A DNA stretch of 64,000 nt from Marinagarivorans sp. (GTDB lineage: Bacteria > Pseudomonadota > Gammaproteobacteria > Pseudomonadales > Cellvibrionaceae). Made by a program: the position numbers and the translations under genes. The DNA is taken from assembly GCA_046347475.1 (NCBI GenBank), contig JAXMGD010000003.1:453242-517241 (forward strand), read 5' to 3'. Every line of letters begins with the position of its first letter. Positions within the stretch are counted from its first letter, which is position 1. Below, one piece after another: positions 11,600 through 63,947 of this stretch. The notes beneath the pieces are model-generated. The model ran no database searches and was not told the DNA's origin. It saw only the letters and a list, made by a program, of their open reading frames with translations.

Positions 11600-11710
11600 G
11601 CAGCAGTAATGGATGCAGATTATTTCAGACCGTCAAAAAGAGGGACCTTTTTGACGAGCCTACACGGATGTATTCACGGCGTGTCTGAAATAATCTGCAT
11701 TCATTGCTGC
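11600..11710. repeat. Structured intergenic repeat, family A copy 1 (nested hairpins)
   Basis: Outer 30-bp inverted repeat gcagcagtaatggatgcagattatttcagac / gtctgaaataatctgcattcattgctgc. Inner hairpin cgtcaaaaag-agggacc-tttttgacg. Second copy at 56131-56232. Confidence 0.7.
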
Positions 11711-13412: not shown

Positions 13413-13446
13413 AACACGGCAGCCAAGTGGAAAAGGGGCAGCGGAT

Positions 13447-14409
13447 TTACCATCGGTAATAATCCGCTAGTGCATTAGAGTCGTCCTGTTCCTGCCAATG
13501 GGTGAAATCCCAAAAAACACTGCAGGAGGTAATTAAGGCCCGCTTGAGGGCATCTATTGCGCGGTGCCTGGGGAAGTTACTGCGCCAGTGCAGATACAAG
13601 GGCCTTTGGGGCGCCGGTGTCACCGGCAGCCAGGCCAAAAATTGGTTTTGCGCCACCGCCGCCTGGGCGGAGGATTTGGGCAGCAAGGTCACGGCTAAAT
13701 CCGCCGCCGTCACCTGCTTGAGCAGCTCAGTCCCTACGGTTGCCAGGCTGATTGATTTAAGCCCCATCTGCTGCAGGCAGGCCACCAGTGCGCTATCAGC
13801 GGCGGGAATTTGCAGGCGCTCGGCAATCTGCTCAAGGCTCAAGCAGGTTTGGGTATGAAAGGGATGTTGGCTTGGCAACAGGGCCACATAGGCCTCATCG
13901 GCGAGTTTGAGGGAGACAGTATCCGGCGCTTCGATGGGCTGGCAGTTGAGCAATGTGTCGATTTCCCCCGTGCGCAGATTGGCCACCAGGGCGCTGCTGT
14001 CCGCCTCCTGCAGCACCAGGGGCATCTGCGGCGCCAGCCACTTTAAGTGGCCGAGCACTTGGGGCAGCCACTCAGGCGCCAGTCCCTGTTGCACGCCGAG
14101 TTTTAAGGGCCCGTGCAGGTGATCGCCCAATTGCTGAGCCAGGTCTTTCATGGTTTGCACCTGGCCGAGGGCGACCTGAGCGCAGTGTAAAAGCGGTTCG
14201 GCCTGGGGCAATAAACGCACGCCGAGCTTGCTGCGCTCGAATAACTCAAGCCCCAAGGCGGCTTCGAGTTTTTTAATGCCCATACTTAAATTCGGCTGGC
14301 TCACATGGCACAGCGCAGCGGCTTTACCAAAATGTTGGGTTTTGGCCAGGGCGATAAAAAAGCGCAGTTCGTTGAGTGTCATGGGCGGGCAAAAGGCTAA
14401 GTGTGCCAA
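13447..14409 (-). CDS. LysR-family transcriptional regulator
   Basis: HTH region LNELRFFIALAKTQHFGKAAALCHVSQPNLSMGIKKLE. Likely true start at the internal Met (MTLNEL, about 14382). Confidence 0.8.
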   Translation of the reverse strand: MAHLAFCPPMTLNELRFFIALAKTQHFGKAAALCHVSQPNLSMGIKKLEAALGLELFERSKLGVRLLPQAEPLLHCAQVALGQVQTMKDLAQQLGDHLHGPLKLGVQQGLAPEWLPQVLGHLKWLAPQMPLVLQEADSSALVANLRTGEIDTLLNCQPIEAPDTVSLKLADEAYVALLPSQHPFHTQTCLSLEQIAERLQIPAADSALVACLQQMGLKSISLATVGTELLKQVTAADLAVTLLPKSSAQAAVAQNQFLAWLPVTPAPQRPLYLHWRSNFPRHRAIDALKRALITSCSVFWDFTHWQEQDDSNALADYYRW

Positions 14410-27299: not shown

Positions 27300-27445
27300 G
27301 CCCTTAACCTAAGAAGCGGCTGATTAATTTCAGGTTTTGCCTTTTTTCAATGCGCCCGGCTGTCTCCCTGTAGCGCAGGTAAGGGCTCCATGCCCGCGGC
27401 GGTTTTAAAAAAAAGGAAAAACCCGTAATTACTAAGTAGGTCCGT
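27300..27445. repeat. Palindromic intergenic repeat, family B copy 1 (inverted orientation)
   Basis: Reverse complement matches the 37664-37790 and 53603-53745 copies (ttttgcctttttcaaaa...cgcgggcatggagccc...ctacaggga...gaaaaaaggcaaaacc). Confidence 0.7.
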
Positions 27446-37663: not shown

Positions 37664-37790
37664 TTAAGGAACCTCTGATGAATTCCGGGGTTTGCCTTTT
37701 TCAAAACCGGCGCGGGCATGGAGCCCTTGCCTGAGCTACAGGGAGGTACTCGGGCGCTTTTGAAAAAGGCAAAACCTGGAATTAATGAGA
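37664..37790. repeat. Palindromic intergenic repeat, family B copy 2
   Basis: ggaacctctgatgaattccggggtttgcctttttcaaaaccggcgcgggcatggagccc...gcgcttttgaaaaaggcaaaacctggaattaatgagag. Internal dyad symmetry. Confidence 0.7.
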
Positions 37791-37904
37791 GCTTACTTAA
37801 AAAAGCCATCACGGCCGTTCACCCTGAGGTGTTGAACCCGCCTTCAACAAGCTGCTAACGGGTATCGGCGTAAGGCTGGGGAGGCGGGAGGCTGGGGGGC
37901 AATG

Positions 37905-38178
37905 TCATTAAGTTAAGCCAAGCCCCCTCACCCTAGCCCTCTCGGTAACCGCTCCTGGCGTGACTCTACCTCGATTTCATTCCCGATGAAATTCTACCTC
38001 CCCCGTCCTTGGGGTCGTCCTGCATCCGTGCAGTCGTCCCAAAGGGAGAGGGGACAGTGTGTGCTAACCCTGGAGGGCTTGCTTTTAGCTCCCTCTCCCT
38101 CTGGGAGAGGGTTGGGGTGAGGGTAAGACAGGGAGCGTGAAACAGGCCCAAATCCTTAACTTAATGACATTGGACTGG
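37905..38178. repeat. About 270-bp composite palindromic element containing family C copy 2 (37960-38045)
   Basis: Perfect outer inverted repeat caatgtcattaagttaag / cttaacttaatgacattg. Inner ccccctcaccct / agggtgagggg-like arms. The minus-strand ORFs called here are artefacts. Confidence 0.65.
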
Positions 38179-38299
38179 AGAGGAAGCTCAGTGCCTTTGT
38201 TACGCTGCCCATAACTTCGATTCACCCAGGTAAAACCGGCAGCCTTTGCTTCCCTAGGTGAAACCAATACCATGGGCGTTTTTGCGCTAAGGTTGCCCC

Positions 38300-39187
38300 A
38301 TGGTGTCATCCCTCACCCCCGCCGCCAGGCTCTACGCCTACGCCCGCTTAATGCGGCTGGATAAACCCATCGGTTTTTTCCTTCTATTGTGGCCGGTGTT
38401 GTGGAGTTTGTGGCTGGCGGCCAAGGGCGCTCCCTCCATCGCCAACCTGCTGATTTTTAGCCTAGGGGCTTTGGTGATGCGCTCGGCCGGGTGTGTGATT
38501 AACGACTATGCCGATCGCAATATCGACGGAGCGGTCAGCCGCACAAAAATGCGGCCATTGGTGCTGGGCCATGTTTCAAGCCGTGAGGCCCTGGGGTTGT
38601 TTGGGGGCCTGTGCCTGCTGGCGCTGCTGCTGGTGAGCCTCACCAACCGCCTCACCCTGTATTTATCCGTCGGCGCCCTGGCCTTGGCCACGGCCTATCC
38701 TTTTATGAAGCGCTACACCTATTTGCCGCAGGTGGTGTTGGGAGCTGCTTTTGCCTGGTCGATCCCTATGGCGTTTGCCGCCGAGACCGGCACTGTGCCG
38801 CCCCAGGCCTGGCTGGTGTACACCGCCGTGGTGATGTGGACCACCGCCTACGATACGTTTTACGGCATGGTGGACCGGGAGGAGGATATAAAAATTGGTG
38901 TGAAATCCACGGCGATTTTATTTGCCGAGCAAGATCGCACCATGACCGGCCTGCTGCAGGGGCTGTTCCTGCTCACCCTGTGGGTGGTGGGCCATAAAAT
39001 GGCCTTGGGCTGGCCCTATTATTTGGGCCTTGTGGCTGCCGCTTTGCTGTCGGGCTACCAGCAGTGGTTGATCCGCGCGCGGGAGCCCGCCGCTTGTTTT
39101 CGTGCCTTCTTGCATAACAATTGGGTGGGCATGGTGATTTTCTTAGGGCTGGTGGCGCAATTTGCTCTTGTCATAAAACCGCAATAA
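38300..39187 (+). CDS. ubiA: 4-hydroxybenzoate polyprenyltransferase
   Basis: 295 aa. [10 protein letters not shown] (NDxxDxxxD) motif and UbiA-type TM topology. Conserved ubiA-phoB-phoR synteny. Confidence 0.85.
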
Positions 39188-39236
39188 AAGGTTTATCTAA
39201 TCGCAACATACTTTCCCCCTAACCAGTTGCGCCTGT

Positions 39237-39944
39237 ATGAGCTTAAGTAAAACGATTTTGATTGTGGATGATGAGCCCGCCATTCGCGACATGCTGCGGG
39301 TGGCCTTGGAAATGGCCAATTACCAGGTGCTTGAAGCTGGCGACGCCAAAGCCGCCCACGGCCTCATAGTGGATAACAAACCGGATTTAATTTTGCTCGA
39401 TTGGATGATGCCCGGCACCAGCGGCATGGAGCTGGCCCGCCGCCTAAAACGCGATGAACTCACCGCCGCCATCCCCATCATCATGCTCACCGCCAAGGTG
39501 GAAGAGGACAACAAAATCCAAGGCCTTGAAGTAGGCGCCGACGATTACATCACCAAACCCTTCTCCCCCCGCGAGCTGGTGGCGCGCCTTAAAGCCGTAT
39601 TGCGCCGCACCGACACCCTCACCAGCGGCGACCCGATAAAAGCCGGTGAGCTGGTGCTGGACCCGGTCAGCCACCGGGTGAGCATTCAAGGCACCCCCGT
39701 GCAAATGGGGCCAACCGAGTACCGCCTGCTGGAGTTTTTCCTCACCCACCAAGAGCGGGTGTACAGCCGCAGCCAATTGCTGGACCATGTGTGGGGCGGC
39801 AATGTGTATGTGGAAGAGCGCACAGTGGATGTACACATTCGCCGCCTGCGCAAAGCCATAGGCATTGCCGATCACGACCAATTTATCCAGACTGTGCGCG
39901 GGGCGGGCTACCGCTTTTCACTCAAGCACACTTCTAACGAATAA
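39237..39944 (+). CDS. phoB: Phosphate-regulon response regulator PhoB
   Basis: ILIVDDEPAIRDML...LILLDWMMPGTSG receiver plus winged-helix OmpR/PhoB C-terminus. Followed by phoR. Confidence 0.85.
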   Translation: MSLSKTILIVDDEPAIRDMLRVALEMANYQVLEAGDAKAAHGLIVDNKPDLILLDWMMPGTSGMELARRLKRDELTAAIPIIMLTAKVEEDNKIQGLEVGADDYITKPFSPRELVARLKAVLRRTDTLTSGDPIKAGELVLDPVSHRVSIQGTPVQMGPTEYRLLEFFLTHQERVYSRSQLLDHVWGGNVYVEERTVDVHIRRLRKAIGIADHDQFIQTVRGAGYRFSLKHTSNE

Positions 39945-39952
39945 GATTATCT

Positions 39953-41248
39953 ATGCCACTTGAAGGTTATCGCCTCGAACTCTTAGGGCTTGCAGGCTTT
40001 ATCAGTGCGCTGGGCTTATTGGGCTATTTTTTTGATGCCACCGCACTGGGCCTGTTAATCGCCACCAGCCTCTACTGCTGCCGCATCCTTTATCAAACCC
40101 ACCGCTTAGGCCGCTGGATCTACCAGGCTCGCCGCAGTACCGAAGCGGATGAGGGGCTATCCAGTGTGTGGAGCGATATAGCCGAAGATGTGCGCTTTTT
40201 ACAGCTGCGCCACGACCGAGAAAAACAACGCCTGCAAGCAGTAGTGGTGCGTGTGCAAGAGATGACCACGGCGCTGACCGACGGCGTTATCCTCATCGAC
40301 AAGCGCGACAACGTCGAATGGTGGAACCAAGCGGCCGGGCATCTGTTCGGTTTTAAAGAGGTCGACCAGGGCCACAAACTCACCAACATCATCCGCGCCC
40401 CCAAATTCGTCCACTACTTCGACCAGCGCAGCTACCAACAACCGCTGGAGCTCAACGCCTTTCGCAAGGACGATTTGCAACTGCAAATTCAAGTACACCC
40501 CTTCGGCCAGGGCGAGCGCTTGGTGGTGGCCCGCGATATCAGCCGGGTTTATAAACTCGAACAAATGCGCAAAGACTTTATCGCTAACCTCTCCCACGAA
40601 CTGCGCACCCCCCTCACCGTCATCAAAGGCTATCTAGAAACCCTCACCGACAGCGAGCAAATGCCCCGCACCTGGCAGCAGCCCATGGCCCAAATGAGCG
40701 GCCAGGCCGCCCGCATGAATAGCCTGATTGAAGACCTGATGACCCTCTCCAAGCTCGAAACCCAAGAGCGCGAACCCCAGCGCCACCCAGTGGCCTTAGG
40801 CCCGCTCTTGACGGGTATCATCGAAGACGCCAAAGCCCTAAGCGCCAGCCGGGGCCACGAATTTGTCCTGCAGGGCGAGCTGGCTACCAGCCTGCTGGGC
40901 AACAGCGATGAACTGCGCAGCGCCTTCGCCAATTTGGTGGTGAACGCCGTAAATTACTCGCCCAATGGCGGCAAGATTATTATCTCGGTGCAGCGCGCAA
41001 GCGGCGGCCTTGAGGTCTCTGTGAAGGACAATGGCGTGGGCATAGACCCCAAACACATCCCGCGCTTAACCGAGCGCTTCTACCGCGTAGACCCCAGCCG
41101 CTCAGTGCTCACCGGCGGCACAGGCTTAGGCCTTGCCATAGTCAAACACATCCTCTTGCGCCACCAGGCCCAACTGCGCATCAACTCCATGCCGGGCAAA
41201 GGCAGCACCTTTTATTGCGAATTTCCCCAAGAGGCGGTGGCTACTTAG
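39953..41248 (+). CDS. phoR: Phosphate-regulon sensor kinase PhoR
   Basis: Two N-terminal TM segments, PAS, H-box LSHELRTPLTVIKGY, HATPase (GTGLGLAIVKH). Confidence 0.85.
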   Translation: MPLEGYRLELLGLAGFISALGLLGYFFDATALGLLIATSLYCCRILYQTHRLGRWIYQARRSTEADEGLSSVWSDIAEDVRFLQLRHDREKQRLQAVVVRVQEMTTALTDGVILIDKRDNVEWWNQAAGHLFGFKEVDQGHKLTNIIRAPKFVHYFDQRSYQQPLELNAFRKDDLQLQIQVHPFGQGERLVVARDISRVYKLEQMRKDFIANLSHELRTPLTVIKGYLETLTDSEQMPRTWQQPMAQMSGQAARMNSLIEDLMTLSKLETQEREPQRHPVALGPLLTGIIEDAKALSASRGHEFVLQGELATSLLGNSDELRSAFANLVVNAVNYSPNGGKIIISVQRASGGLEVSVKDNGVGIDPKHIPRLTERFYRVDPSRSVLTGGTGLGLAIVKHILLRHQAQLRINSMPGKGSTFYCEFPQEAVAT

Positions 41249-53602: not shown

Positions 53603-53745
53603 TAAGGAACCTCTAATTAATTCTAGTTTTTGCCTTTTTTCAAAACTGTCGCGGGCATGGAGCCCGCGCCGGAGCTACAGGGATGTGCTCGGGCAGTTTT
53701 GAAAAAAGGCAAAAGCCAGAATTAATCAGAGCCTCCCTAACAGCT
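53603..53745. repeat. Palindromic intergenic repeat, family B copy 3
   Basis: ggaacctctaattaattctagtttttgccttttttcaaaactgtcgcgggcatggagcccgcgccggagctacaggga...ttttgaaaaaaggcaaaagccagaattaatcagag. Confidence 0.7.
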
Positions 53746-54016: not shown

Positions 54017-56095
54017 GTGGAGGTGATCGTGAAAATAGTTATTCTCTTATTTTTGGCTACCGCCTTATTCGCCTGCGGCGCCTCGCCCGGTGGGGAGGGC
54101 ACCTCGTCTAGCTCATCCAGTTCATCCAGCGGCAAATTGGCCAGCAGTAGCTCAAGTTCCTCGGGTAAAAGCTCAAGTTCATCCAGCAGCAGCTCAAGCT
54201 CCTCGGGCAAAAGCTCAAGTTCTTCCAGCAGTAGTTCCAGTTCCTCCGGTAAAAGTTCAAGTTCTTCTAGCAGTAGTTCAAGTTCCTCCAGCAGCAGTTC
54301 GTCTTCCTCAGGTGCTCCCTTGAGTTGTGAGCTGGGCACAAGCCAGACCCAATGGGCTACCCGCTGCAGCGCGCCGCCCAGTTGTGTGGCGGGCACTTGG
54401 AACCCACCGAAAGACGGCGGCGAAAATGGTGCTCCTCTACGCCTGGAAACAGAGCATTTTGCTTTTTATTGGAAAGACGGCACCAATATTACAGACGCGG
54501 ACGCCAAAGCCGCAGGTGTTACCTTGGAATCTATTTGGGATAAATATTTTACCGCGCCCATAAATTTCCCCGAGCCCTACTGCAACAGCAGTAAAAAATG
54601 GAAAGCGGCTGTGCATTTTGATAACAGCTTCCCCTTGTGGGGCGGTGCCTGGAGCCGCAACGGCATTAATTATGCCGGCATGTGGGTAGGGCCGGGTGCG
54701 GCCAAGGATAATTGGGGCTTGGCCCATGAATTTATGCACGGCGTGCAATCCTTAACGCCTGCGTTTTCTGAATGTGGCGGGCAGGGCTGTTGGATTTTTG
54801 AAAGCCACGCCAATTGGATGCCTCACCAAATATACCGCGACAACGTGCACTGTTCTGAAATGCTCGCCAACGCGCCCCATCTACACTACGGCAATACCCG
54901 CGACCGCTACTGCAACTGGCAATTTTTTGAGTACGTTAAAGATCGTTTTTGCCCCAGCGCTATTAATGATATGTGGACCACTGAAGCGCCCCAAGGCCAA
55001 CGGGACCCCTTTCAAAAACTCATGTATGCCAACCGTTGGACGCTAGAAGAATTAAACGATTTATTTGGCGAGTGGGCCATGCACAACGTCACCTGGGATT
55101 ACATGAACCCCGATGGTAGCAATCAGGGCGCGATTTACCGCAAAAATTACGGTGCAATTACCGATACACAATACAGCCAGCGCCGTTTGCGCATGACACA
55201 ATTAGAGTCATTAGATAATGACTGGGCTAAAAATCGACGCTTTAGCTCACCTTATTATTGGGCGCCCCAACGCTGGGGGTACAACGTTATTCGCCTGTAC
55301 CCCGATGCGGGGGCCAGTAGTGTGCGCATTAAATTTCGCGGGGTGTTACAGCCGGGCGCCAATACCGGTTTTCGTTGGGGGCTGGTCGCCACCGATGGCA
55401 ATATTCAAAATCCGCGTTACAGCAGTATAAAAGCCGGTACCGATGGAGAATTAAATTTTTGTCTTAACGCGAACGAACAATTATTTTTAGTGGTGTTAGC
55501 GGCGCCCACTCAATATCAAAAAATTACCTGGCAACAACCCAGCGACGGCACACCTTACCCCAGTATTTACCGCTACCCCTATATGCTGGAATTAACCAAC
55601 GCCTGGCCGGCCGGTTTTAAAAATGGCAGCCGCGATAATTGCGCGACTAATTTAGTGCGCCATAGCAATGGTGGTGGCTGCGCTCCGGCCAATACACCCA
55701 GCAGTGTTTATGTGGGCCCATACGCCACGGTGGCGGGTGGCAAAGTGAGCGATAATGCGCGCATTGAAGATCAGGCTATGGTGGTAAATGGCACGGTGAG
55801 CGGCAATGCCCGCGTGGGCGCTTTAACCACACTAGGTGTAGCCGCCAACGCGCACCATGGGGCAGCCAGTTTTACTGTAACGGGCAATGCCAGTGTAATG
55901 GCAAGTTTTTATCCCATGGGGTGGTTTGCTAATAATGCTACAGCACAGGGTTCGGTGCAGTTATGGGGTGATCTGGAGTATTACACCAATGCCAAAACCA
56001 GCGGTATTTTTTACGGCTTAGTGGATGAAGCGGCTACAGGGGTTCCCACGGCAGCAGAAGTAACCTTGCCGCCGCCGTATAGTTGGCGTAATTAA
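54017..56095 (+). CDS. Lipoprotein with poly-Ser linker, HExxH metallopeptidase-like domain and C-terminal beta-helix-like repeats
   Basis: Lipobox LFACGAS. About 90 aa Ser linker. GLAHEFMHGVQ (HExxH). C-terminal repetitive G/N/V-rich segment (GGKVSDNARIEDQAMVVNGTVSGNARVGALTT). Confidence 0.7.
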   Translation: MEVIVKIVILLFLATALFACGASPGGEGTSSSSSSSSSGKLASSSSSSSGKSSSSSSSSSSSSGKSSSSSSSSSSSSGKSSSSSSSSSSSSSSSSSSSGAPLSCELGTSQTQWATRCSAPPSCVAGTWNPPKDGGENGAPLRLETEHFAFYWKDGTNITDADAKAAGVTLESIWDKYFTAPINFPEPYCNSSKKWKAAVHFDNSFPLWGGAWSRNGINYAGMWVGPGAAKDNWGLAHEFMHGVQSLTPAFSECGGQGCWIFESHANWMPHQIYRDNVHCSEMLANAPHLHYGNTRDRYCNWQFFEYVKDRFCPSAINDMWTTEAPQGQRDPFQKLMYANRWTLEELNDLFGEWAMHNVTWDYMNPDGSNQGAIYRKNYGAITDTQYSQRRLRMTQLESLDNDWAKNRRFSSPYYWAPQRWGYNVIRLYPDAGASSVRIKFRGVLQPGANTGFRWGLVATDGNIQNPRYSSIKAGTDGELNFCLNANEQLFLVVLAAPTQYQKITWQQPSDGTPYPSIYRYPYMLELTNAWPAGFKNGSRDNCATNLVRHSNGGGCAPANTPSSVYVGPYATVAGGKVSDNARIEDQAMVVNGTVSGNARVGALTTLGVAANAHHGAASFTVTGNASVMASFYPMGWFANNATAQGSVQLWGDLEYYTNAKTSGIFYGLVDEAATGVPTAAEVTLPPPYSWRN

Positions 56096-56130
56096 TTCTA
56101 AGGGTGCACTGATTACTGGCTGTACGGAAG

Positions 56131-56232
56131 CGATGAATACACATCGTTTCGGACCGTCAAAAAGAGAGACTTTTTTGACGCGCCTACAAGGATGTATTTA
56201 CGGCGTGTCAGAAATGATGTGTATTCATTGCC
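56131..56232. repeat. Structured repeat, family A copy 2
   Basis: gaatacacatcgtttcggac / gtcagaaatgatgtgtattc outer stem around a conserved core cgtcaaaaagagagacttttttgacg...ggatgtatttacggcgtgtc. Confidence 0.7.
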
Positions 56233-56241
56233 GGTGCCTAG

Positions 56242-56350
56242 GTAGGAATTCCATTTCAAAATCGCCCGAGTAGCACCCTCGCGGGCTCCATGCCCGCGAG
56301 GGTTTTGAAAAAAGGCAAAGCCAGGAATTAACAGAGGTTCCCTAAGGCAT
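56242..56350. repeat. Family B repeat, partial copy 4, fused to family A copy 2
   Basis: gcgggctccatgcccgcgagggttttgaaaaaaggcaaagccaggaattaacagaggttcc. Confidence 0.6.
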
Positions 56351-57259
56351 TGCCGAGAAATGACGTCGCTTTCGCTGGCGTCGTTCAAGTGTGCACACAA
56401 TATCTTTTTAATCAGCAAATGCTGCGAGTATTGGCGAGGCTCGCGACGGCTTAGGCCGTGGCGCCAAAACCGCTAGTAAAAAACGGGTTAATATCGGTGT
56501 GCCGAGTAAAAATCCAGTTCTATATAGCCAGTGTATTTGGCTCTTCCATTATTGTGCTATGCGCTTAGGGTATTAACCGGGCAGTTTTAATGCGGCGACA
56601 CAATAACTCAGCGCGATCATTTTGTTCCCAGGTGAATAAGCTGCCTGCGCCATCAGCAGATTAATTTAACTAGACTATTATAAGAAGTAGCTAATAGTGT
56701 GACGCGTTTAGCTCTATTTTAATCGTGATTTATTCACTTATTACGGCGGTGAATTGCTATTAATTATATGGGCCTTTGGCTATAGCCGACTGCAACACGC
56801 TGCTAGACGAATTTAGGCTGGGTGCCCGGCAAAAAATAAGGCGCAGGGCTGCTTGGCTATGCCGCAGATGTAGGCTGGAATTCTGTGGGCCCTGCAAGAA
56901 TCACCGCCATCTGGGGATATTGCTGGAGCCTAGGGAATAGCTGGAGCGAATCTGCTAAGTCTCAATTGCACCAAGTCAGAATTCGGCAGTGAGTTTTTAA
57001 GCCTTGTAAGGCTAGGGGGTAGTGAAGGATGCCGGGCAACACAAACCCCACGCGGCTCGGGCAGTATTTTGCTGCTCAGGTGCTGTTTATTTTTAGCATC
57101 AGGGTTATGGGCCCCATTCATACAGGGCGGGAATTAATCAACGCATCGTGAAATCAGACTATTGCTTGTGTCCTTAAGGTGTGTGGCGCTTAAGCTTTTG
57201 GATGCAGCCTGCTGTTGTGGCTACTGGAATTATTATTTTCAAAAGGTGCGTGTAGCTTT

Positions 57260-58957
57260 ATGCCTAACAATCGTCACGCCAAGATTCGGTTGGTGTTATT
57301 TACGCCTTATCACGAAGGGTTTTTCTATGGTGAAATTATTAACCATGTGCGCCTGCTGTGTAAGTTAAAAAACTATGCGTTGGATGTTATAGCTACCCAC
57401 AGTTTGGGTGAATACCACAGTAATTTTTGGCTGGCCAATGTGGGCGCCGTTATTATTGTGCGCAATGCCATCAGCCCAAGCTTCGCCGCCGAGCTAAGTG
57501 CGCGGGGGATTCCCTGTGTATCCATTGCGTATGATTATTTTCCCGCGCCGATCAATATGGTGTGCAGCGATAATCGCCAGGGCGTTAAGTTGGCCTTTGA
57601 ACATTTAGTGGCTAAGGGCCACAGCCGGATTGCTTTTATCGGTGATTTAACCCAGTACGATTTGCGCAAGCGCTATGAGGCCTATTGTGAAGAACACGGT
57701 CGCCATCATTTGCCGCTGGATGAAGAGCTCTCATTTTTTACCCAAACTACTACCTATTTAGGTGGCTTTAACGCCGCCACTGAATTTGTAAAACGCGACT
57801 GCGATGCCACCGCTGTTATTGCCGGAGCGGGGCTTTTGGCGGAAGGATTTAAATCGCGTTTAAATGATATCAGCCCCATGTTGTGTGAGTCGTTGGAAAT
57901 TGTTGCCTTTGATGTAATGCCCGTGCAGATATTATCCAATAAATCCACGGTGGCGATTGATTTAAACCTCATGTTCATCGCCCATAATTGCATCACAATT
58001 ATCGAGCGCATTCGCGCAGGTCACGATGTGGAGCATCAAACCAAAATTGATTGTCGCCTGGTGACCTTGCCCGCATTTGGCGTGGCCGCCGCCGATGATT
58101 TAGCCCCCTGTTTAGAGGACGCGAGTTTCACCAATACCCCCTACGTGAAAAGCCTGATCACGAATATGTACGAGTGGACCATGGCGATTGCCGGCACGGG
58201 GTTGAGCGATGTGATGAGCTTATCGCCGCTGTTTGACCAGCTGTTAAAAATGGGCTTGTTATTTAGGCTGGTCAAGGGCGCAGGCGCCGTGGAGTCGGCC
58301 CGTTTAGTTAAGGTGTGCAAACGGCGGGAAACTTTATTAATGGATAAATACGACCCTGCTAATCAGTGTTTGTCTGAGGAGGTGCAAAACCATTTTGAAT
58401 CGTATTTTGAACACGCCGAATATGAGTTAACCACCAGCTTCCCCATTGTGATTAACGGCAAAATGTGGGGGATGTTTACCGCCTGTGGCCTTAATGAAAT
58501 TAGTGATAGCCGCAATAATTATTTGGCGCTCTTGTGTTATCTGGATTTGTCGATTCAATTTTTAACCAAAAATATCGTCTCCTCCTTGGATGCCGCGGCC
58601 GAGAAAAATCCTACGCCCCATGCCACCACGGCCGATAACTGTGGCATAGTGAAGTGGGATTTAGCCAAGGGCGTAGTGGAGTGGAGTGATGAGGCCTTGG
58701 CGTTTTTAGGTTTAATGTCCCCGCTGGAGAAAAATATTTACCGCTACATGGAGCTGGATGATCGAGTCCATGACGAGGACCAAAGTGTTCTGCGCTCAGG
58801 GCTTTATAAACTGCATGAACAAGCGGTACCCCTGCATGTGCAGGTGCGAATGAAATCCAAAGCGGGGCCTTATCTTTTGATGCGGATAGATGGCCAAGCG
58901 GAACTCGCGCAGAAATTACTTTTATTTGAGCTGCGGCAGGAGTTGGGGGCACTGTAG
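57260..58957 (+). CDS. Cytoplasmic sensor-like protein: LacI/RbsB-type periplasmic-binding-fold domain (no HTH), central GAF-like region, C-terminal PAS
   Basis: IRLVLFTPYHEGFFYGEII...GHSRIAFIGDLTQYDLRKRYEAY matches the LacI-family ligand-binding core. C-terminal WDLAKGVVEWSDEALAFLG...HVQVRMKSKAGPYLLMRIDGQ is PAS-like. No signal peptide and no DNA-binding domain. Low GC. Confidence 0.6.
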   Translation: MPNNRHAKIRLVLFTPYHEGFFYGEIINHVRLLCKLKNYALDVIATHSLGEYHSNFWLANVGAVIIVRNAISPSFAAELSARGIPCVSIAYDYFPAPINMVCSDNRQGVKLAFEHLVAKGHSRIAFIGDLTQYDLRKRYEAYCEEHGRHHLPLDEELSFFTQTTTYLGGFNAATEFVKRDCDATAVIAGAGLLAEGFKSRLNDISPMLCESLEIVAFDVMPVQILSNKSTVAIDLNLMFIAHNCITIIERIRAGHDVEHQTKIDCRLVTLPAFGVAAADDLAPCLEDASFTNTPYVKSLITNMYEWTMAIAGTGLSDVMSLSPLFDQLLKMGLLFRLVKGAGAVESARLVKVCKRRETLLMDKYDPANQCLSEEVQNHFESYFEHAEYELTTSFPIVINGKMWGMFTACGLNEISDSRNNYLALLCYLDLSIQFLTKNIVSSLDAAAEKNPTPHATTADNCGIVKWDLAKGVVEWSDEALAFLGLMSPLEKNIYRYMELDDRVHDEDQSVLRSGLYKLHEQAVPLHVQVRMKSKAGPYLLMRIDGQAELAQKLLLFELRQELGAL

Positions 58958-58961
58958 GCCT

Positions 58962-60878
58962 ATGCAATCACTATGGGCAGTATTAACAACCTATCCCTGG
59001 TTGTGGGCAAGTTTATTCTTGGCTACCACAGGGATTCTTGTGATTTGCCTGGCCAAACAGCACCTGCGCGACAAACAGACTCATCCGACTACAAACAGCA
59101 GCCTAAGCCCAGAAGAGCAGGACCGCGCGATCATTCTGAATTTTTTAGTGGAGCAGTTTGATAAAACAAAACGCCTGCAGGACAACGTGTATTTTCGTCA
59201 CGATGAGCTAGACCGGCACGCCTGCTCGCTGCGCAGTGCCTATTTAAAAATAGAAGAAAAAAGTTTATTAAACCATGCCGATCATCGCAATTATCACCTG
59301 GCTATTAATAAGTCATTAGTTAAATTGCTGAAAATAATTCGTGATGATGCGGTCAAAGCCATCGACCAGGAGGGATTGTCGGATCACTCATTACATGAGG
59401 CCCTCGACGGCTCATCACTGAGCGCCCAAGAGAAGAGCGATTTACTGGACGAAATCGAAACCTTTTGTGACCAACTCAAATCCGGCGCTATAGGCGTTGA
59501 ATACAGGAAAAAACGCTACAAACAGCTCTTGTCCATGATTAAAAATGTAGAGAATACCGAAGAGCGCGTGGCGATGAAAAAATTGCTGCTGTTGGCGGAA
59601 TCCGCCGATGCAAGCTTCACACACTACTCCAATCTATCGGAATCGGTTTTTAATGCAGGCTCTGATGTGGCCGCCTTAGAAGGCGCCTTAGACGGCAGCG
59701 GGCAGGGCCTTAGTGCTCAAGTGCGGGCACAATTAGAGGCCCTGAATAAAGAAAATATGAAACTCTATTCCCAAGTGCAAATGCTGCGGCAGTGGTCTAA
59801 GGAGCATAAAAAACTCGCTTATCCCGAAGGGGTCAGCCTGAGCACCAACGCCATTAATGATGTCTCGGATGAAATTATTAGCAAGCATGAGGAGGAGCTT
59901 AAAGCCTTAAAAGCCCTGGTGCGCAATCAAAAGCTAACCATTGTTGAGCTGGAAAGCAGTTTGGATGAGTACCGCAAGTTAGAACCTGTCAAAGGTGTAA
60001 AACCCGCCTATGAGCAGGAGTTTGGTGCCTTAAACCGCAGGCTTAGCGCCACCGAAGACTTAATTAGCGAGCAGGAGAAAAATGTCGGCCGTATGCGCAG
60101 CGGGCTTGATGCCCTGAGCAGCCAAGCACCCAGTGGAGATGAACGCGCAACTTTGATGCAGTGCATCGATAAACTCAAAAAAGAAGTAGTAGAAGCAAAA
60201 GAGGCTTATAGCACTAAAAATGTAGAGTTCGATTTTATCAGTGAATTAATTCGCGTCGGCTCCCTTGAAGATTTGGCCTTGTTGGTGTTCCAATATTTTT
60301 GTGATCAAAAATGCGACCCATTTTTGCTGATTACCCATAAGGGCCGCAGCATTGAGATGTCCGCTAGTGGGTCTTTATCGGTTAAAGATAAAACCATTAT
60401 TAACGCTATGATGCCCAATGATGCCTCCAAGGATGATGAGCGTTTTCAGTTGCAGTTTCGCTATCAGAATTTTGGCGGCATACTGCGTTTTTTGCCGGGC
60501 AGCACCGATAATTACGACGCCTGTGAGGCCATGTTAAAAATGGCCAAGATTACCGATGCCTTTATTGAAAAAATATCCAGCGGGCAGACTATGCGCGGTG
60601 TTAAAAAACAATTGGAGCAGTGCGCGAATGACGTTAAACAGTTGGCGCAAACCGTAGATGTGGGCTTTGAACACCTCTGTCAAACCCACCGCCAGCTAGT
60701 GGCTAACCATGTGCTTCGCACTCAAAACCTGTTGCGTGTGAAAGGTGCCAGCGCTGCCCAGATTGCCTGCTTAAAACAAATGGAAACTGAGATGTTAGAG
60801 GATATGGTGCTCAACGGCAGTGTGCGCATTAAAATGCGCAAAGAATTTTTAACGCTGGTTAAAAAAGTGGAGTCATGA
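58962..60878 (+). CDS. N-terminally membrane-anchored coiled-coil protein with a C-terminal GAF-like domain, hypothetical
   Basis: TM helix LWASLFLATTGILVICLA. Long heptad-rich region. Starts 4 nt after the stop of the upstream gene. Confidence 0.6.
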   Translation: MQSLWAVLTTYPWLWASLFLATTGILVICLAKQHLRDKQTHPTTNSSLSPEEQDRAIILNFLVEQFDKTKRLQDNVYFRHDELDRHACSLRSAYLKIEEKSLLNHADHRNYHLAINKSLVKLLKIIRDDAVKAIDQEGLSDHSLHEALDGSSLSAQEKSDLLDEIETFCDQLKSGAIGVEYRKKRYKQLLSMIKNVENTEERVAMKKLLLLAESADASFTHYSNLSESVFNAGSDVAALEGALDGSGQGLSAQVRAQLEALNKENMKLYSQVQMLRQWSKEHKKLAYPEGVSLSTNAINDVSDEIISKHEEELKALKALVRNQKLTIVELESSLDEYRKLEPVKGVKPAYEQEFGALNRRLSATEDLISEQEKNVGRMRSGLDALSSQAPSGDERATLMQCIDKLKKEVVEAKEAYSTKNVEFDFISELIRVGSLEDLALLVFQYFCDQKCDPFLLITHKGRSIEMSASGSLSVKDKTIINAMMPNDASKDDERFQLQFRYQNFGGILRFLPGSTDNYDACEAMLKMAKITDAFIEKISSGQTMRGVKKQLEQCANDVKQLAQTVDVGFEHLCQTHRQLVANHVLRTQNLLRVKGASAAQIACLKQMETEMLEDMVLNGSVRIKMRKEFLTLVKKVES

Positions 60879-60950
60879 GGGGAAGGACCTTTTGGCTCAA
60901 ATCTTTACCCTGTGACTCTGCGTGCCGGTTTAGTTGTGTAAAGGCATGAA

Positions 60951-60985
60951 TAAAAACCGCCTAAGGCTTTGCGCCTTAGGCGGTT
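60951..60985. terminator. Rho-independent terminator between convergent genes
   Basis: Perfect 11-bp stem ccgcctaaggc / gccttaggcgg with a 5-nt loop. U-tract on the minus-strand side (taaaaa on +). Confidence 0.75.
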
Positions 60986-60995
60986 GGCCATGCCG

Positions 60996-62711
60996 TTAAA
61001 TTCCGACCCGTGATGGCAGGCGGGTTTGGCATTCGCTGCTGGAGGTGGGCAGTGTGTTTTGTGCCTCTAGACCCTTGGCACTGTACCAAATGCGATACTC
61101 ATCATTGTTGTCAAAACGCAACGCCTGATAAACCGTGCCCTCAATAGTGCGGCTACCGACAGATTTCATGATGGCTTGGTATTTGGCGCCGAGGAATTCA
61201 AAGGTGAGCAGTAGGCTGTAATTATTGGTTTTATTGCCGCGCTCCATCTGGCTCCAAAAACCCTTAATTAATTCGCCGCGGGAATTGCCTTTGCCAAGGC
61301 TGCCATCGGCTTTAGCTTTTTTAATGTATTTTGCACAGGCGGTAAAACTGCCAGCGGTGGCATCGCTGCCGCCGGCAAAATACAGCTCAAATTCAATGTC
61401 TTTTAAATTATTGGGTTTTTGGCCTAAATCCATGTCGGCTACGTGCAGCTGCTTGCCGCCGACAGAATTAAAGGGCACCGCGTTGGCGTCCAGGGCGCCG
61501 AGGTGTTTGATGTTTGCCGGGTTTTTCACATCCTCGGCGGAAAACTCATGTTCCGTTAATTGACTAATATCCGCTTGTTCGCTGCCTAAGCTGGTTAATA
61601 ATTCCTGATGGGACGTGTGGGCGGCGCGGAAAAAATTAAACGCCTCATCAGTGGCGGGGTTTTTTTCTGTTTCGTTAAGCGCTTTTATACCCAGCACCTC
61701 AATGGCGCGCGCACCTGCGCGGGCCTCCTCGGCAGTAGTATTGGCTGTGGGCGGCAGGAGCTGATTAATTAAGGGATTTAACTGCTGAAGGCGGTCCACA
61801 ATGACATCAAACTTTCCGTCATCGCTACTTTGTGCCGGCAGTGGCAATTCTTTTTGCTCATAGCGCTTTTGAACCGCTTGTTCGGCATTTTTAGCTACAC
61901 GTTTTAATAAGCTGGCATCGGTTAAGGCCTCATCCACTGAGCCCTCATATTGAGTGAGTGCTTCGGCCAGGGCTTCATAGGCGTGGCCAGATGCATCGCT
62001 GGGCATGCCGTTTTCATCGCCGAGGGCGGTATAAACAGTGGCGATTTTTTTACCCATTAGACTCGCCACTTTATGTAGCTTAATTGCATTATTTAACAGT
62101 GCGCCATCAACCTTGCTGTCGGGGGCTGTGTAGTCGCTATTTAAATCCGTTGTACTCAGGCCTAATTTGGTTAACAGGGCTGAGCTTTGGCTGGCGGTTA
62201 ATCCGCTGGTTAAACTGCTTAAGGGCGAAATAACATGGTTGTTATTTACATCCTGTAAACGCAGGCTTAATTGCCCGGTAAAAGGCTCTCCGGTCAGCGT
62301 ATCGTAGCCGCCGGTAATGCGCAGGCTGGCATTATCGTATTGGCGGGCCGGTTTTAAACAATATTGGCTTTCTTCTGCCGTGCTCGTATCGGCGCAATAA
62401 TTTTTTTGGCTGTTGGGATTATAGCTGAAATAACCTTCGTTATCCGTAAATGCAAATGGCTCCCAGGCATCGCGCACACCATTATTATCGCTGTCGATAT
62501 ACACTTTGGCGCGCGCTAAATGGCCGTCAATGGCCAGCCCTTTTAACGCCGTTTGGCTGGGCGCTGTGGTGGTCTGTACGGCCGTGCCGCGATCTTGATT
62601 GCCACCGCCGCAGCTGGAGAGTGCCGCAAGGCTTATTGCCAGCACAGTTAATTTAAAACGCTGTGGAGCAGGCTTGGGCAATTGAATAAGGGATGTACGC
62701 ATAGGGACCAC
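60996..62711 (-). CDS. Hypothetical lipoprotein (571 aa)
   Basis: Signal peptide and lipobox LSSCGGG. No family recognised. Confidence 0.65.
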   Translation of the reverse strand: MVPMRTSLIQLPKPAPQRFKLTVLAISLAALSSCGGGNQDRGTAVQTTTAPSQTALKGLAIDGHLARAKVYIDSDNNGVRDAWEPFAFTDNEGYFSYNPNSQKNYCADTSTAEESQYCLKPARQYDNASLRITGGYDTLTGEPFTGQLSLRLQDVNNNHVISPLSSLTSGLTASQSSALLTKLGLSTTDLNSDYTAPDSKVDGALLNNAIKLHKVASLMGKKIATVYTALGDENGMPSDASGHAYEALAEALTQYEGSVDEALTDASLLKRVAKNAEQAVQKRYEQKELPLPAQSSDDGKFDVIVDRLQQLNPLINQLLPPTANTTAEEARAGARAIEVLGIKALNETEKNPATDEAFNFFRAAHTSHQELLTSLGSEQADISQLTEHEFSAEDVKNPANIKHLGALDANAVPFNSVGGKQLHVADMDLGQKPNNLKDIEFELYFAGGSDATAGSFTACAKYIKKAKADGSLGKGNSRGELIKGFWSQMERGNKTNNYSLLLTFEFLGAKYQAIMKSVGSRTIEGTVYQALRFDNNDEYRIWYSAKGLEAQNTLPTSSSECQTRLPSRVGI

Positions 62712-62789: not shown

Positions 62790-63947
62790 TTAAAACTGTT
62801 CTGCAATTGCCAATGCAAAACCAAAACTGCGCGGCAGATCGCTGCCATCGACGCGGGTACTATCAAGCGCCCAGGACACATCTAAACTCACCCCTTTAAA
62901 TTCAATACCCAACGCCAGTTGTGTTAATTGGCTACCGGCGAGATTTTTTTGCAGGCCGCTACGTACATTGGGCAACCAGTGAGTGCTGGGTGCATAGTGT
63001 GCGGAAATCGTTAGCCATTGCTGTTCAGTGCCGACAAAATCGTCGTAGGCGGTGAGATCTAAAGCGGCGGATGCCCAGGCATTGCTCTGCCAATAATAGG
63101 TGCCATCAAGCCCAAGATAGGCTGTTTTTTTGTGTGTTTCGCGGGCTTTAATGTCGCCGCGCACCTGGGCAAAATCGGCGGCGGCTTCGCAGTTCGCGCG
63201 GGCGATGGAATTTTCCGCGCGGGTTTGGCAGTTTTCACCTACCGGGCCGTAATCAAACGAGGGCTGATTTAAATTGTATAAAGTGGCGCCGAGTCTGTAG
63301 CGATCCGCCGCCCAGATAACACCCACATCAAGCCCCGGTGCGGTGGTGGATTGGCTGTTGTTATCGTATTCATCGCGTATAACATCACCTATGTCTTTGC
63401 CATCAAGTTTTTGCAACAAAAAAACCTGTTTACTTAAATCCAAGGCGTATACAGATAATTTGGCTCCGGCGTAGAGTTGGCCGCCGTAGCGTTTTTGATC
63501 AGCCCCATCAAACCAGCCCCTTGAATAACCCAATGCAAAAGCCGTTTGCGTGGCACCTTTTAAATAGGCGGCGGTGGCGGTGCTAAAGGATTTATTTTGT
63601 TCATCGTAGCTGAGCGGGGCGTCCAGTACGCGGGCTAGCACTTGGGTATTAAAGCTGATATCGGCCATTAAAGTGCCGTCCCACAGAGGCATTTTCCAAT
63701 ACAGGGGCATGAGCGGCAGGTGTAATTCGGCGCTATTTTTAACGTAACCTTCGTCACCCATTTTGACCAAAATAGAATTAAATCGGTCTAAAACAGTTTG
63801 TACTGGGTCTTTATTTAAACTGGGGTCATCGATCAGATCGATTAAATCATCCAGATCATCCACAAAATTATCAACCTGACCAATTTCCGTCAGTGTGCTA
63901 AGGCTGGGTGTAAACCCTAAGCGAAATTGTTCGCCATCATTCACCAT
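62790..63947 (-). CDS. Putative outer-membrane beta-barrel protein; N-terminus may lie upstream of the listed Met
   Basis: C-terminal ...FGFALAIAEQF ends in Phe, the classic OMP signature. Alternating amphipathic strands. The listed Met has no signal peptide, so the true start is probably further upstream or beyond the window. Confidence 0.5.
   Translation of the reverse strand: MVNDGEQFRLGFTPSLSTLTEIGQVDNFVDDLDDLIDLIDDPSLNKDPVQTVLDRFNSILVKMGDEGYVKNSAELHLPLMPLYWKMPLWDGTLMADISFNTQVLARVLDAPLSYDEQNKSFSTATAAYLKGATQTAFALGYSRGWFDGADQKRYGGQLYAGAKLSVYALDLSKQVFLLQKLDGKDIGDVIRDEYDNNSQSTTAPGLDVGVIWAADRYRLGATLYNLNQPSFDYGPVGENCQTRAENSIARANCEAAADFAQVRGDIKARETHKKTAYLGLDGTYYWQSNAWASAALDLTAYDDFVGTEQQWLTISAHYAPSTHWLPNVRSGLQKNLAGSQLTQLALGIEFKGVSLDVSWALDSTRVDGSDLPRSFGFALAIAEQF

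What the first reader, a model, noticed from the sequence alone, without database searches (positions are those of the whole stretch)
56420..60880. Low-GC islet encoding an HTH-less LacI-type ligand-binding/GAF/PAS protein coupled to a membrane-anchored coiled-coil/GAF protein
- The region has visibly lower GC (about 42-45% versus about 55%) and begins with about 800 bp of non-coding DNA.
- The first protein has a LacI/RbsB-type sugar-binding core right at its N-terminus, with no DNA-binding domain and no signal peptide. It continues into GAF-like and PAS domains.
- A 662-aa partner starts 4 nt later: TM anchor, then a long coiled coil, then a GAF-like domain.
- This is an unusual two-protein small-molecule sensing module with no obvious output domain. 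It was possibly acquired horizontally.
Basis: partly seen in the sequence, partly recalled or inferred. Interest (0 to 1): 0.55.

Follow-up and report, generated by a model that had tools for sequence, protein, structure and literature searches.

The report
Output-less sugar-type sensor with membrane partner
Two tightly linked genes encode a cytoplasmic sensor built from a Lac-repressor-type ligand-binding core (without its DNA-binding head) plus GAF and PAS domains, and a membrane-anchored coiled-coil protein of an undescribed family; the pair is conserved across Cellvibrionaceae, is not a foreign low-GC island, and its output is still unknown.

Summary
The two genes and most of the stated architecture are real. 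ORF1 (57260-58957, 565 aa) is an HTH-less, signal-peptide-less LacI-type core followed by a GAF-like domain and a PAS domain. ORF2 starts 4 nt after ORF1's stop (58962-60878), so it is 638 aa, not 662. It has an N-terminal membrane anchor, a long helical/coiled-coil region and a small conserved alpha/beta domain, and matches no Pfam, NCBIfam or PADLOC family.

Three claims fail:
- **Low-GC islet:** GC is 47.4% against a window mean of 50.0%, about 1.1 SD low, and GC3 equals the neighbours.
- **Horizontal acquisition:** relatives keep the same synteny, with 71-75% nucleotide identity in pair and flanks alike.
- **GAF in ORF2:** the profile tests found no GAF signal.

New findings:
- The A-then-B pair recurs in more than 20 Cellvibrionaceae loci, in at least six different contexts.
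- The two proteins co-diverge (r = 0.97).
- A solo paralog of A sits in the flagellar/chemotaxis locus.
- A solo paralog of B exists.
- A distant homolog of A is fused to GGDEF-EAL.

Best reading: a cytoplasmic small-molecule receptor that signals by contact to a membrane-tethered effector of a new family. Ligand, contact and output are inferred.

The parts
56096..57259 (.). Long gene-free upstream region (1164 bp). The first 250 bp are interspersed palindromic repeats. The promoter of the A-B operon is presumed to lie here.
   Evidence: Only 101-aa and 63-aa mechanical ORFs, both on the minus strand. No Rfam match. Stretch 56130-56345 has repeat copies elsewhere in the window. The region is only about 465 bp in L005, and little of it is conserved. 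No shared sigma28 or sigma54 consensus.
57260..58957 (+). Gene A: 565-aa cytoplasmic sensor protein (LacI-type core, GAF-like domain, PAS domain; no HTH, no signal peptide).
57281..58075 (+). A, residues 8-272: type I periplasmic-binding-protein fold of the LacI/GalR core. Family-invariant residues are D92 (in the Y-D-Y-F-P motif), D134, R136, R138 (in Y-D-L-R-K-R-Y-E) and D218.
   Evidence: Pfam PF13377 and PF00532 above cut-off. Foldseek hits CcpA, RbsR, PurR and LacI at E 1e-15 to 1e-12. LacI inducer contacts D149, R197 and D274 align to the invariant D92, R138 and D218, whereas N246 aligns to A190.
58112..58609 (+). A, residues 285-450: GAF-like alpha/beta domain that ends in a long connecting helix (421-449).
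   Evidence: Secondary structure of the AF2 model. 12 of 23 members hit PF01590 weakly (best E 8.6e-5) and 9 of 23 hit GAF_2. Nearly all weak PDB profile hits (E 0.03-0.4) are GAF-type domains.
58637..58939 (+). A, residues 460-560: PAS domain (PAS_3 type). The protein ends just after it.
   Evidence: PAS_3 scores 13.9 bits here, below cut-off. PF08447 is listed for many homologs and scores 55.9 bits in L030. The model shows a PAS-like strand/helix order.
58962..60878 (+). Gene B: 638-aa membrane-anchored coiled-coil protein of an unnamed family. It starts 4 nt after A's stop codon.
58992..59054 (+). B, residues 11-31: single N-terminal transmembrane helix. There are no basic residues before it, and K32, R36 and K38 follow it, so the bulk of the protein is predicted to be cytoplasmic.
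   Evidence: The Kyte-Doolittle maximum (2.03) falls at residues 13-31. Topology is inferred from the positive-inside rule.
59124..59336 (+). B, residues 55-125: the most conserved helical block near the membrane, with R91, Y94 and E98 invariant in 52 sequences (L-R-x-A-Y-L-K-I-E-E-K).
59409..60206 (+). B, residues 150-415: long helical, coiled-coil-like region.
   Evidence: The AF2 model is helical here, at low confidence. Pfam and PDB matches are only to coiled-coil proteins.
60219..60596 (+). B, residues 420-545: conserved small alpha/beta domain of unassigned fold (E436 and D437 nearly invariant; S-L-E-D motif).
   Evidence: No Pfam, PDB or GAF similarity.
60597..60878 (+). B, residues 546-638 plus the stop codon: conserved C-terminal helical region.
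60955..60985 (.). 13-bp G+C-rich inverted repeat between the convergent genes B and the 571-aa ORF. It is a terminator-like site.

Best explanation
The region is a two-gene operon that encodes a self-contained cytoplasmic sensing pair specific to Cellvibrionaceae.

**Protein A** is a soluble receptor, probably dimeric. Its Lac-repressor-type Venus-flytrap core has lost the DNA-binding head but keeps the canonical cleft residues. It most likely closes around a small polar metabolite, such as a sugar or sugar derivative.

**Relay.** The change is passed through the GAF-like domain and the long connecting helix to the C-terminal PAS domain. Because A ends there, the signal is handed on by protein-protein contact to protein B.

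**Protein B** is made from the same transcript. An N-terminal helix ties it to the inner membrane, and a long coiled coil with a small conserved alpha/beta domain lies in the cytoplasm. B is the effector or adaptor that acts on a membrane-associated process.

**Leads for the output.** The best leads are motility and c-di-GMP-type lifestyle control. A paralog of A sits in the flagellar/chemotaxis locus, and a distant homolog of A is fused to GGDEF-EAL.

**Shown:** domain make-up, lack of any known output domain, tight spacing, conservation and co-divergence of the pair, and vertical inheritance.

**Inferred:** ligand binding, A-B contact, and the output.
For: **Architecture of A**
- LacI-type core without HTH, GAF-like domain and PAS domain.
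- LacI inducer contacts D149, R197 and D274 correspond to D92, R138 and D218. R138 and D218 are invariant in the 34-member alignment, and D92 is invariant in the 34 sequences of A1.

**Architecture of B**
- One N-terminal TM helix with basic residues on its C-terminal side, then a helical region, then an alpha/beta domain.
- No known family matches.

**The pair as a unit**
- The gap between the genes is 4 nt.
- The neighbours differ among L005, L006, L007, L008, L009 and L034.
- B remains homologous over its full length at 22-26% identity (E 2e-47).
- Pairwise identities of A and B correlate at r = 0.97 over 190 pairs.

**The A module as a signalling input**
- In L030 the same three-domain module is fused to GGDEF-EAL. 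It shares the D-Y-F-P motif, R138-Y139, G-F, I-D-Q-N-L and the PAS tryptophans.
- LacI-type binding domains are listed as unstudied sensory domains of c-di-GMP enzymes (PMC8846402).

**Motility lead**
- A monophyletic solo-A clade always lies beside fliJ-fliE. In 3 of its 4 loci it lies between these genes and a STAS-CheY-CheA-CheW-MCP-CheR cluster.
Against: - No ligand, no A-B contact and no output has been shown.
- Solo paralogs exist for both proteins: L001, L003, L022 and L025 for A, and L032 for B. Each protein can therefore function without an adjacent partner.
- LacI N246 is replaced by Ala in a G-A-G motif. D92 is Glu in T. haidensis and D218 is Gly in L028. The cleft therefore differs from that of sugar-binding repressors.
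- The top structural match, CcpA, uses a protein (HPr-Ser-P) as effector.
- B's structure model is of low confidence (pLDDT 48.9).
- The motility/c-di-GMP link rests on a paralog and on one distant fusion. No shared sigma28 or sigma54 promoter was found.
Confidence: 0.55

Rival explanations
1. A does not sense a small molecule. Its LacI-type core is a protein-binding or purely dimerising scaffold, as CcpA binds HPr-Ser-P. The real input would be the GAF or PAS domain, or a phosphoprotein of carbon-catabolite signalling. B would still be the partner.
For: - CcpA cores are the best structural matches.
- LacI N246 is replaced and the usual N-D motif is G-A-G.
- The strictly invariant basic cluster R136-K137-R138 would suit a phosphorylated partner or an anionic ligand.
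- Cleft positions vary in some members.
Against: - Three of the four polar LacI inducer contacts are kept and invariant across 34 diverse members. Such conservation is what a functioning ligand cleft would show.
- No HPr-type gene is linked in any locus.
Confidence: 0.17
2. A and B are functionally independent neighbours. B is a structural, membrane-tethered coiled-coil protein, for example an organiser of the envelope, division or cell pole in the manner of EzrA. A is an unrelated orphan sensor, and adjacency is only inherited gene order.
For: - Solo A and solo B paralogs exist.
- B is annotated 'Smc' or 'hypothetical' in public records.
- B has no sensor or enzymatic domain.
Against: - The order A then B, with 0-30 nt spacing, is kept at 22-31% identity while every neighbouring gene changes.
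- Gene order that is merely inherited would not survive that many rearrangements.
Confidence: 0.15
3. One reading: a horizontally acquired low-GC islet carrying a foreign sensing module.
For: - GC is slightly below the window mean (47.4% versus 50.0%).
- The upstream spacer is long and poorly conserved, and carries repeat elements.
- The pair lies in different contexts in distant relatives.
Against: - The GC deviation is about 1.1 SD, and GC3 is not lower than in the neighbours.
- Other parts of the window are equally low in GC.
- L005 and L011 show the same synteny and the same divergence in pair and flanks.
- The family is almost confined to Cellvibrionaceae.
- There are no plasmid matches, and no integrase, tRNA or transposase borders the pair.
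Confidence: 0.03

Closest known systems
LacI/GalR-family repressors (LacI, PurR, RbsR, CcpA)
   Same: The type I periplasmic-binding-protein core is homologous (Pfam and NCBIfam hits; Foldseek E about 1e-15). The C-subdomain ligand contacts R197 and D274, and D149, are conserved.
   Different: There is no HTH or hinge helix, so the protein cannot bind an operator. The core is followed by GAF and PAS domains. The N246 position is Ala. The family-specific motifs Y-D-Y-F-P and Y-D-L-R-K-R-Y-E are present.
GGDEF/EAL proteins with cytoplasmic LacI-type (Peripla_BP) sensor domains, such as the 1002-aa protein of L030
   Same: The input module has the same three domains (core, GAF-like, PAS) and shares motifs. 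This class of sensory domain is recognised but unstudied (PMC8846402).
   Different: The window protein stops after the PAS domain and has no GGDEF or EAL. Instead it is coupled to a separate membrane protein.
Binding-protein-dependent membrane sensors (MBP-Tar, LuxP-LuxQ, TorT-TorS, ChvE-VirA)
   Same: The logic is similar: a Venus-flytrap binding protein docks onto a membrane-anchored, coiled-coil-rich signalling partner.
   Different: In those systems the binding protein is periplasmic, and the partner carries a kinase or MCP signalling domain. Here both parts are cytoplasmic, and B has no MCPsignal, HisKA or HATPase domain. This is an analogy only.
EzrA-type N-terminally anchored cytoplasmic coiled-coil proteins
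   Same: The topology matches: one N-terminal TM helix followed by about 600 residues of cytoplasmic helical repeats.
   Different: No sequence similarity was detected. EzrA belongs to Firmicutes and has no adjacent sensor gene. B also has an extra alpha/beta domain. The comparison is recalled from general knowledge and was not tested.

Membership tests
LacI/GalR transcription factors | N-terminal LacI-type HTH (PF00356) and hinge helix | tested here: not met
   ORF1 has no PF00356 hit. Residue 23 aligns to RbsR position 76. A genuine LacI regulator in L030 does hit PF00356 in the same kind of search.
LacI/GalR transcription factors | Type I PBP-fold effector-binding core | tested here: met
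   PF13377 at 29 bits and PF00532 at 25.9 bits, both above cut-off. Foldseek hits on CcpA, RbsR, PurR and LacI have TM-score (target) 0.65-0.81.
LacI/GalR transcription factors | Conserved cleft residues that contact the effector (LacI D149, R197, N246, D274) | tested here: inconclusive
   D92, R138 and D218 align to D149, R197 and D274, and are invariant. N246 aligns to A190. Binding itself was not tested.
Periplasmic solute-binding proteins (RbsB type) | Signal peptide and export to the periplasm | tested here: not met
   The N-terminus MPNNRHAKIRLVLF runs straight into strand 1 and has no hydrophobic leader.
GAF domain (ORF1, residues 285-450) | Match to GAF profiles or fold | tested here: inconclusive
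   The window protein itself has no hit. 12 of 23 family members hit PF01590 (best E 8.6e-5). Nearly all weak PDB profile hits are GAF-type domains. The model's secondary structure is compatible. No domain-level fold search was possible.
PAS domain (ORF1, residues 460-560) | Match to PAS profiles and a PAS-like strand/helix order | tested here: met
   Sub-threshold in the window protein (13.9 bits). PF08447 is listed for many homologs, and L030 scores 55.9 bits. The model has a PAS-like strand/helix order.
   0 of 26 members hit GAF at E up to 10. There are no GAF chains among the PDB profile hits. hhalign against A's GAF alignment gives probability 0.4%. The fold is untested because the model has pLDDT below 50 in this stretch.
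Methyl-accepting chemotaxis proteins (for ORF2) | MCPsignal domain (PF00015) | tested here: not met
   No PF00015 hit in ORF2 or in 52 family members. There is only a coiled-coil-level PDB match to 2ch7 at E 0.002.
c-di-GMP turnover enzymes | GGDEF and/or EAL domain | tested here: not met
   Absent from ORF1 and ORF2. Present only in the distant homolog of L030.
Genomic island / horizontally acquired DNA | Deviant composition, mobility genes, and absence from close relatives at the same site | tested here: not met
   GC is about 1.1 SD below the mean and GC3 is normal. No mobility genes. Syntenic in L005 and L011.
Anti-phage defence systems | Match to PADLOC models | tested here: not met
   No hit for ORF1, ORF2 or the downstream 571-aa ORF.

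The most novel reading that the evidence does not exclude
A and B define an undescribed type of bacterial signalling pair. A cytoplasmic Venus-flytrap receptor (LacI core, GAF, PAS) has no enzymatic or DNA-binding output. It controls, by direct contact, a membrane-tethered coiled-coil effector of a new protein family. The pair would link the intracellular carbohydrate state of polysaccharide-degrading Cellvibrionaceae to flagellar motility or another membrane process.
Probability: 0.25. Interest if true: 0.65.

Novelty: new variant of a known kind. Interest (0 to 1): 0.45.

Why it matters
LacI-type binding cores are normally thought of as repressor parts. They are listed as frequent but unstudied sensory domains in c-di-GMP signalling proteins. 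Here the same input module occurs without any output domain. It is genetically locked to a membrane-anchored protein of a family that has only about 60 sequence clusters among 1.8 billion representatives, and no annotation.

If the proteins do not interact, the finding is simply two lineage-specific hypothetical genes.

Tried and rejected
- **Rfam** on 55900-61200 at E up to 1: no match.
- **Generic promoter/terminator scan:** no more sites than in shuffled sequence.
- **Sigma28 and sigma54 consensus** upstream of A in 33 loci: nothing shared.
- **PADLOC** on A, B and the downstream ORF: nothing.
- **Plasmid collection:** no match with the upstream spacer as DNA or with ORF2 as protein.
- **Third word-indexed homolog search,** using the 52-sequence B profile: returned only the 11 close relatives already known.
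- **afdb50 fold library:** unavailable.
- **Metagenome scan with the 52-sequence alignment:** The 7-sequence alignment worked.
- **AF2 model of ORF2** from 11 sequences: too poor to search (pLDDT 48.9).
- **PDB and Pfam profile searches of B:** only coiled-coil noise, such as sigma-1, GCN4, keratin, Smc and SlyX.
- **Idea that solo-A genomes lack B:** rejected, because T. haidensis has both a pair and the solo A.
- **PilZ-like reading of B's E-x-S-x-x-G motif:** considered by eye and dropped, because the domain is predicted alpha/beta and the R-x-x-x-R half is missing.
- **Literature searches:** nothing on this architecture beyond the census remark in PMC8846402.

Full report
**What is at the coordinates**

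The region 56420-60880 holds two co-directional ORFs preceded by a long gene-free stretch.

- **ORF1.** The mechanical ORF starts at a TTG (57215). All close homologs are 564-565 aa and begin at the ATG at 57260. Gene A is therefore 57260-58957, 565 aa.
- **ORF2.** The 662-aa figure is the maximal ORF from 58890, which overlaps ORF1 by 68 nt. ORF1 ends with TAG at 58957, and four bases later an ATG at 58962 opens a 638-aa frame. Most full-length homologs are 631-638 aa and align from that Met.
- **Upstream spacer.** It runs from the stop of the DUF6055 gene to A's ATG (56096-57259), so it is 1164 bp rather than about 800 bp.

**Composition**

- The finding has 47.4% GC and the whole window 50.0%.
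- Same-length windows have SD 2.2% and a minimum of 47.0%, so the region is about 1.1 SD low. Several other parts of the window are equally low.
- GC3 is 56% for A and 52% for B, against 49-54% in the three flanking genes. The small deficit therefore probably reflects amino-acid composition, not foreign codon usage.
- The stated contrast of 42-45% against 55% is not in the sequence.

**Protein A**

- *Core.* Pfam gives Peripla_BP_3 (29 bits) and Peripla_BP_1 (25.9 bits), both above cut-off. NCBIfam aligns residues 23-268 to positions 76-323 of RbsR. The DNA-binding head is therefore missing, and no LacI HTH is found.
- *Model.* An AlphaFold2 model built on 34 family members is confident (pLDDT 86.6, pTM 0.74). 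It shows three domains: an alpha/beta core (10-270), a second alpha/beta domain (285-420) ending in a long helix (421-449), and a PAS-like domain (460-560).
- *Structural matches.* Foldseek against the PDB returns only LacI-family cores (CcpA, RbsR, AscG, PurR, LacI). E-values are 1e-15 to 1e-12. TM-scores are 0.65-0.81 on the target but at most 0.41 on the query. No solved structure therefore shares the whole architecture.
- *Middle domain.* It is GAF-like at the family level, though not for this sequence alone. 12 of 23 members hit PF01590 (best E 8.6e-5) and 9 hit GAF_2. Nearly all of the weak PDB profile hits are GAF-type domains.
- *PAS domain.* PAS_3 is sub-threshold here (13.9 bits). 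It is listed among the precomputed Pfam hits of many homologs and scores 55.9 bits in L030.
- *Location.* There is no signal peptide.
- *Cleft.* The alignment to LacI is robust in the C-subdomain. LacI S193, R195, R197 and D274 fall on D134, R136, R138 and D218, each invariant in all 34 members, whereas N246 falls on A190. A HMMER alignment to an ancestral LacI structure places the invariant D92 of the Y-D-Y-F-P motif on LacI D149. That LacI D149, R197, N246 and D274 contact the inducer is my own knowledge of the LacI structures. It was not tested here.

**Protein B**

- It matches no Pfam, NCBIfam or PADLOC family. Every weak match is to a coiled-coil protein.
- The only strongly hydrophobic segment is residues 11-31. 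No basic residue precedes it, and K32, R36 and K38 follow it. In distant homologs the following segment is even more basic. By the positive-inside rule the protein is an N-terminally anchored cytoplasmic protein.
- The AF2 model from 11 sequences is poor (pLDDT 48.9). It is helical throughout apart from a small alpha/beta stretch near residues 450-470.
- Conservation across 52 sequences picks out three blocks:
  - a block near the membrane (L-R-x-A-Y-L-K-I-E-E-K, with R91, Y94 and E98 invariant);
  - a central coiled-coil block (E312, L316);
  - a block at residues 420-545 (S-L-E-D).
No member of a 26-sequence alignment of that block hits GAF even at E = 10. No GAF chain appears among the PDB profile hits. 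hhalign against A's own GAF gives probability 0.4%.

**The pair is a conserved unit, not an islet**

- *Rarity.* A full HMMER search of 1.84 billion cluster representatives with the B profile finds only 64 proteins. Nearly all are 600-700 aa and match end to end.
- *Order and spacing.* HMM searches of six-frame ORFs show a B homolog directly after A in about 22 loci.
- *Context.* The neighbours are unrelated from locus to locus:
  - L005 and the window: DUF6055 gene, then TraF_2 gene;
  - L006: amidase and LigB genes;
  - L007: FKBP and GT2 genes;
  - L008: hybrid kinase and SecDF genes;
  - L009: DinB and a sigma-factor cluster;
  - L034: GH3, GH43 and a TonB-dependent receptor.
- *Homology of B.* At this distance B is 22-26% identical to ORF2 yet aligns over its full length (E 2e-47).
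- *Co-divergence.* Pairwise identities of A and B correlate at r = 0.97 over 190 locus pairs. B evolves faster (mean identity 30%, against 39% for A).
- *Vertical inheritance.* Against L005 and L011, nucleotide identity is 71.5% across the pair and 73-75% in both flanks, in the same gene order. This contradicts recent acquisition. There are no plasmid matches and no mobility genes.

**Variants that bear on function**

1. *Solo A clade.* This monophyletic clade comprises T. haidensis, T. waterburyi, Alteromonadaceae Bs31 and one MAG.
   - The gene lies convergent with fliJ-fliI-fliH-fliG-fliF-fliE.
   - In 3 of the 4 loci it is also divergent from a STAS-CheY-CheA-CheW-PAS/HAMP-MCP-CheR cluster.
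   - It is a paralog, not a B-less ortholog. T. haidensis also carries an A-B pair elsewhere: L034, with A 31% identical to ORF1, followed by WP_075184572.1.
2. *Solo B paralog.* It is 30% identical to ORF2 (E 8e-81). It lies about 30 kb from the A-B pair on the same metagenomic contig, behind a SUKH_5 gene and with no A.
3. *Fusion.* In a Spirochaetaceae MAG (L030) the whole three-domain A module is fused to GGDEF-EAL in a 1002-aa protein.
   - It is 21-24% identical to A and scores 309 bits against the family HMM.
   - It shares D-Y-F-P, R138-Y139, G-F, I-D-Q-N-L and the PAS tryptophans.
   - A census review lists LacI-type binding domains among notable unstudied sensory domains of c-di-GMP enzymes (PMC8846402).

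**Most likely mechanism**

A is a cytoplasmic receptor. Its flytrap core binds a small polar metabolite. The signal passes through the GAF-like domain and the long helix to the PAS domain. Because the protein ends there, it is handed on by contact to B, which is made from the same transcript and is tethered to the inner membrane as a coiled coil. The fusion in L030 shows that this input module can be wired to a downstream effector domain. The flagellar-locus paralog and the GGDEF-EAL fusion make motility or lifestyle control the best lead for the output.

- *Shown:* architecture, absence of known output domains, tight linkage, co-divergence and vertical inheritance.
- *Inferred:* ligand binding, A-B contact, dimeric state and output.
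- *Weak lead:* the motif A-[TP]-[CS]-x-[DE] in the linker between core and GAF is present in 17 of 21 paired A proteins and in none of the four flagellar solo ones. It may mark a docking site for B.

**Rivals**

- The core may bind a protein or an anionic partner rather than a sugar. CcpA is the best structural match, the R-K-R cluster is invariant, and N246 is lost.
- A and B may be independent, because solo paralogs exist. Against this, the order and spacing survive at 22-31% identity while all neighbours change.
- The horizontally acquired islet is contradicted.

**Novelty and interest**

The sensor parts are known kinds. A LacI-type core with GAF and PAS but no output, coupled to an unannotated membrane-anchored coiled-coil family, has no described counterpart in the libraries or the literature searched. 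I rate it a new variant of a known kind. Interest is moderate (0.45). The unit is conserved, lineage-specific and experimentally tractable, but no function has been demonstrated.

Noticed in passing
window 56130-56345; other copies at 11609-11707, 27324-27431, 37664-37800 and 53603-53740: Two palindromic repeat elements of about 100 bp, at the start of the spacer upstream of gene A, recur in other intergenic parts of the window at 79-89% identity and in both orientations. They look like REP/MITE-type interspersed repeats.
   Followed up: partly
window 54017-56095 (+): A DUF6055 protein (221 bits) with a lipoprotein-like N-terminus and long poly-serine linkers (S-rich runs separated by G-K). 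The gene is present at the same place in L005 and L011. It is absent in L010, the closest relative with sequence there, so it is a variable gene next to the conserved pair.
   Followed up: partly
L001 8001-9728, L003 8001-9719, L022 6001-7698, L025 6001-7761: A solo paralog of gene A always lies beside the flagellar fliE-fliJ genes. In 3 of the 4 loci it lies between these genes and a STAS-CheY-CheA-CheW-PAS/HAMP-MCP-CheR cluster. It is found in Teredinibacter haidensis, T. waterburyi, Alteromonadaceae Bs31 and a MAG. These proteins share the C-terminal ending C-L-S-L-I-N.
   Followed up: partly
L030 5995-9003: A Spirochaetaceae MAG (isolate tPB_Spir1) encodes the same module (LacI core, GAF-like, PAS) fused to GGDEF-EAL, in a 1002-aa protein. 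It sits beside a MacB-type efflux operon, with an ordinary LacI repressor and uxaC nearby. It is the only hit outside Gammaproteobacteria apart from a probable binning error.
   Followed up: partly
L032 3866-5719: A solo paralog of gene B (617 aa, 30% identical to ORF2) lies about 30 kb from the A-B pair on the same contig, Ga0164241_10000066. A SUKH_5 (SMI1/KNR4) gene precedes it and a convergent EF-G gene follows.
   Followed up: partly
L028 7720-9816 (protein P0097, VUD46914.1): The B homolog of Thalassocella blandensis / Teredinibacter sp. ISS155 is named 'Chromosome partition protein Smc' in its NCBI record. This is most likely a coiled-coil mis-annotation.
   Followed up: no
L017 (contig JBQGED010000137.1, 2498 bp): A 2.5-kb contig carrying an A homolog is binned in a 'Sphingobacterium griseoflavum' MAG. 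In the tree it groups tightly with a proteobacterial MAG (L027), so it is probably a binning contaminant.
   Followed up: no
window 12001-14000 and 38001-41000: Segments with 56-58% GC stand out against a background of about 47-50%. The second probably covers UbiA-type, response-regulator and PhoR-type kinase genes, judged by ORF lengths and order against L005.
   Followed up: no
window 60996-62711 (-) and 62790-63947 (-): A 571-aa protein with a lipoprotein-like N-terminus and no family match is followed by a TraF_2 / PorP-SprF-like outer-membrane protein. The same two genes follow the pair in L005, but not in more distant loci.
   Followed up: no
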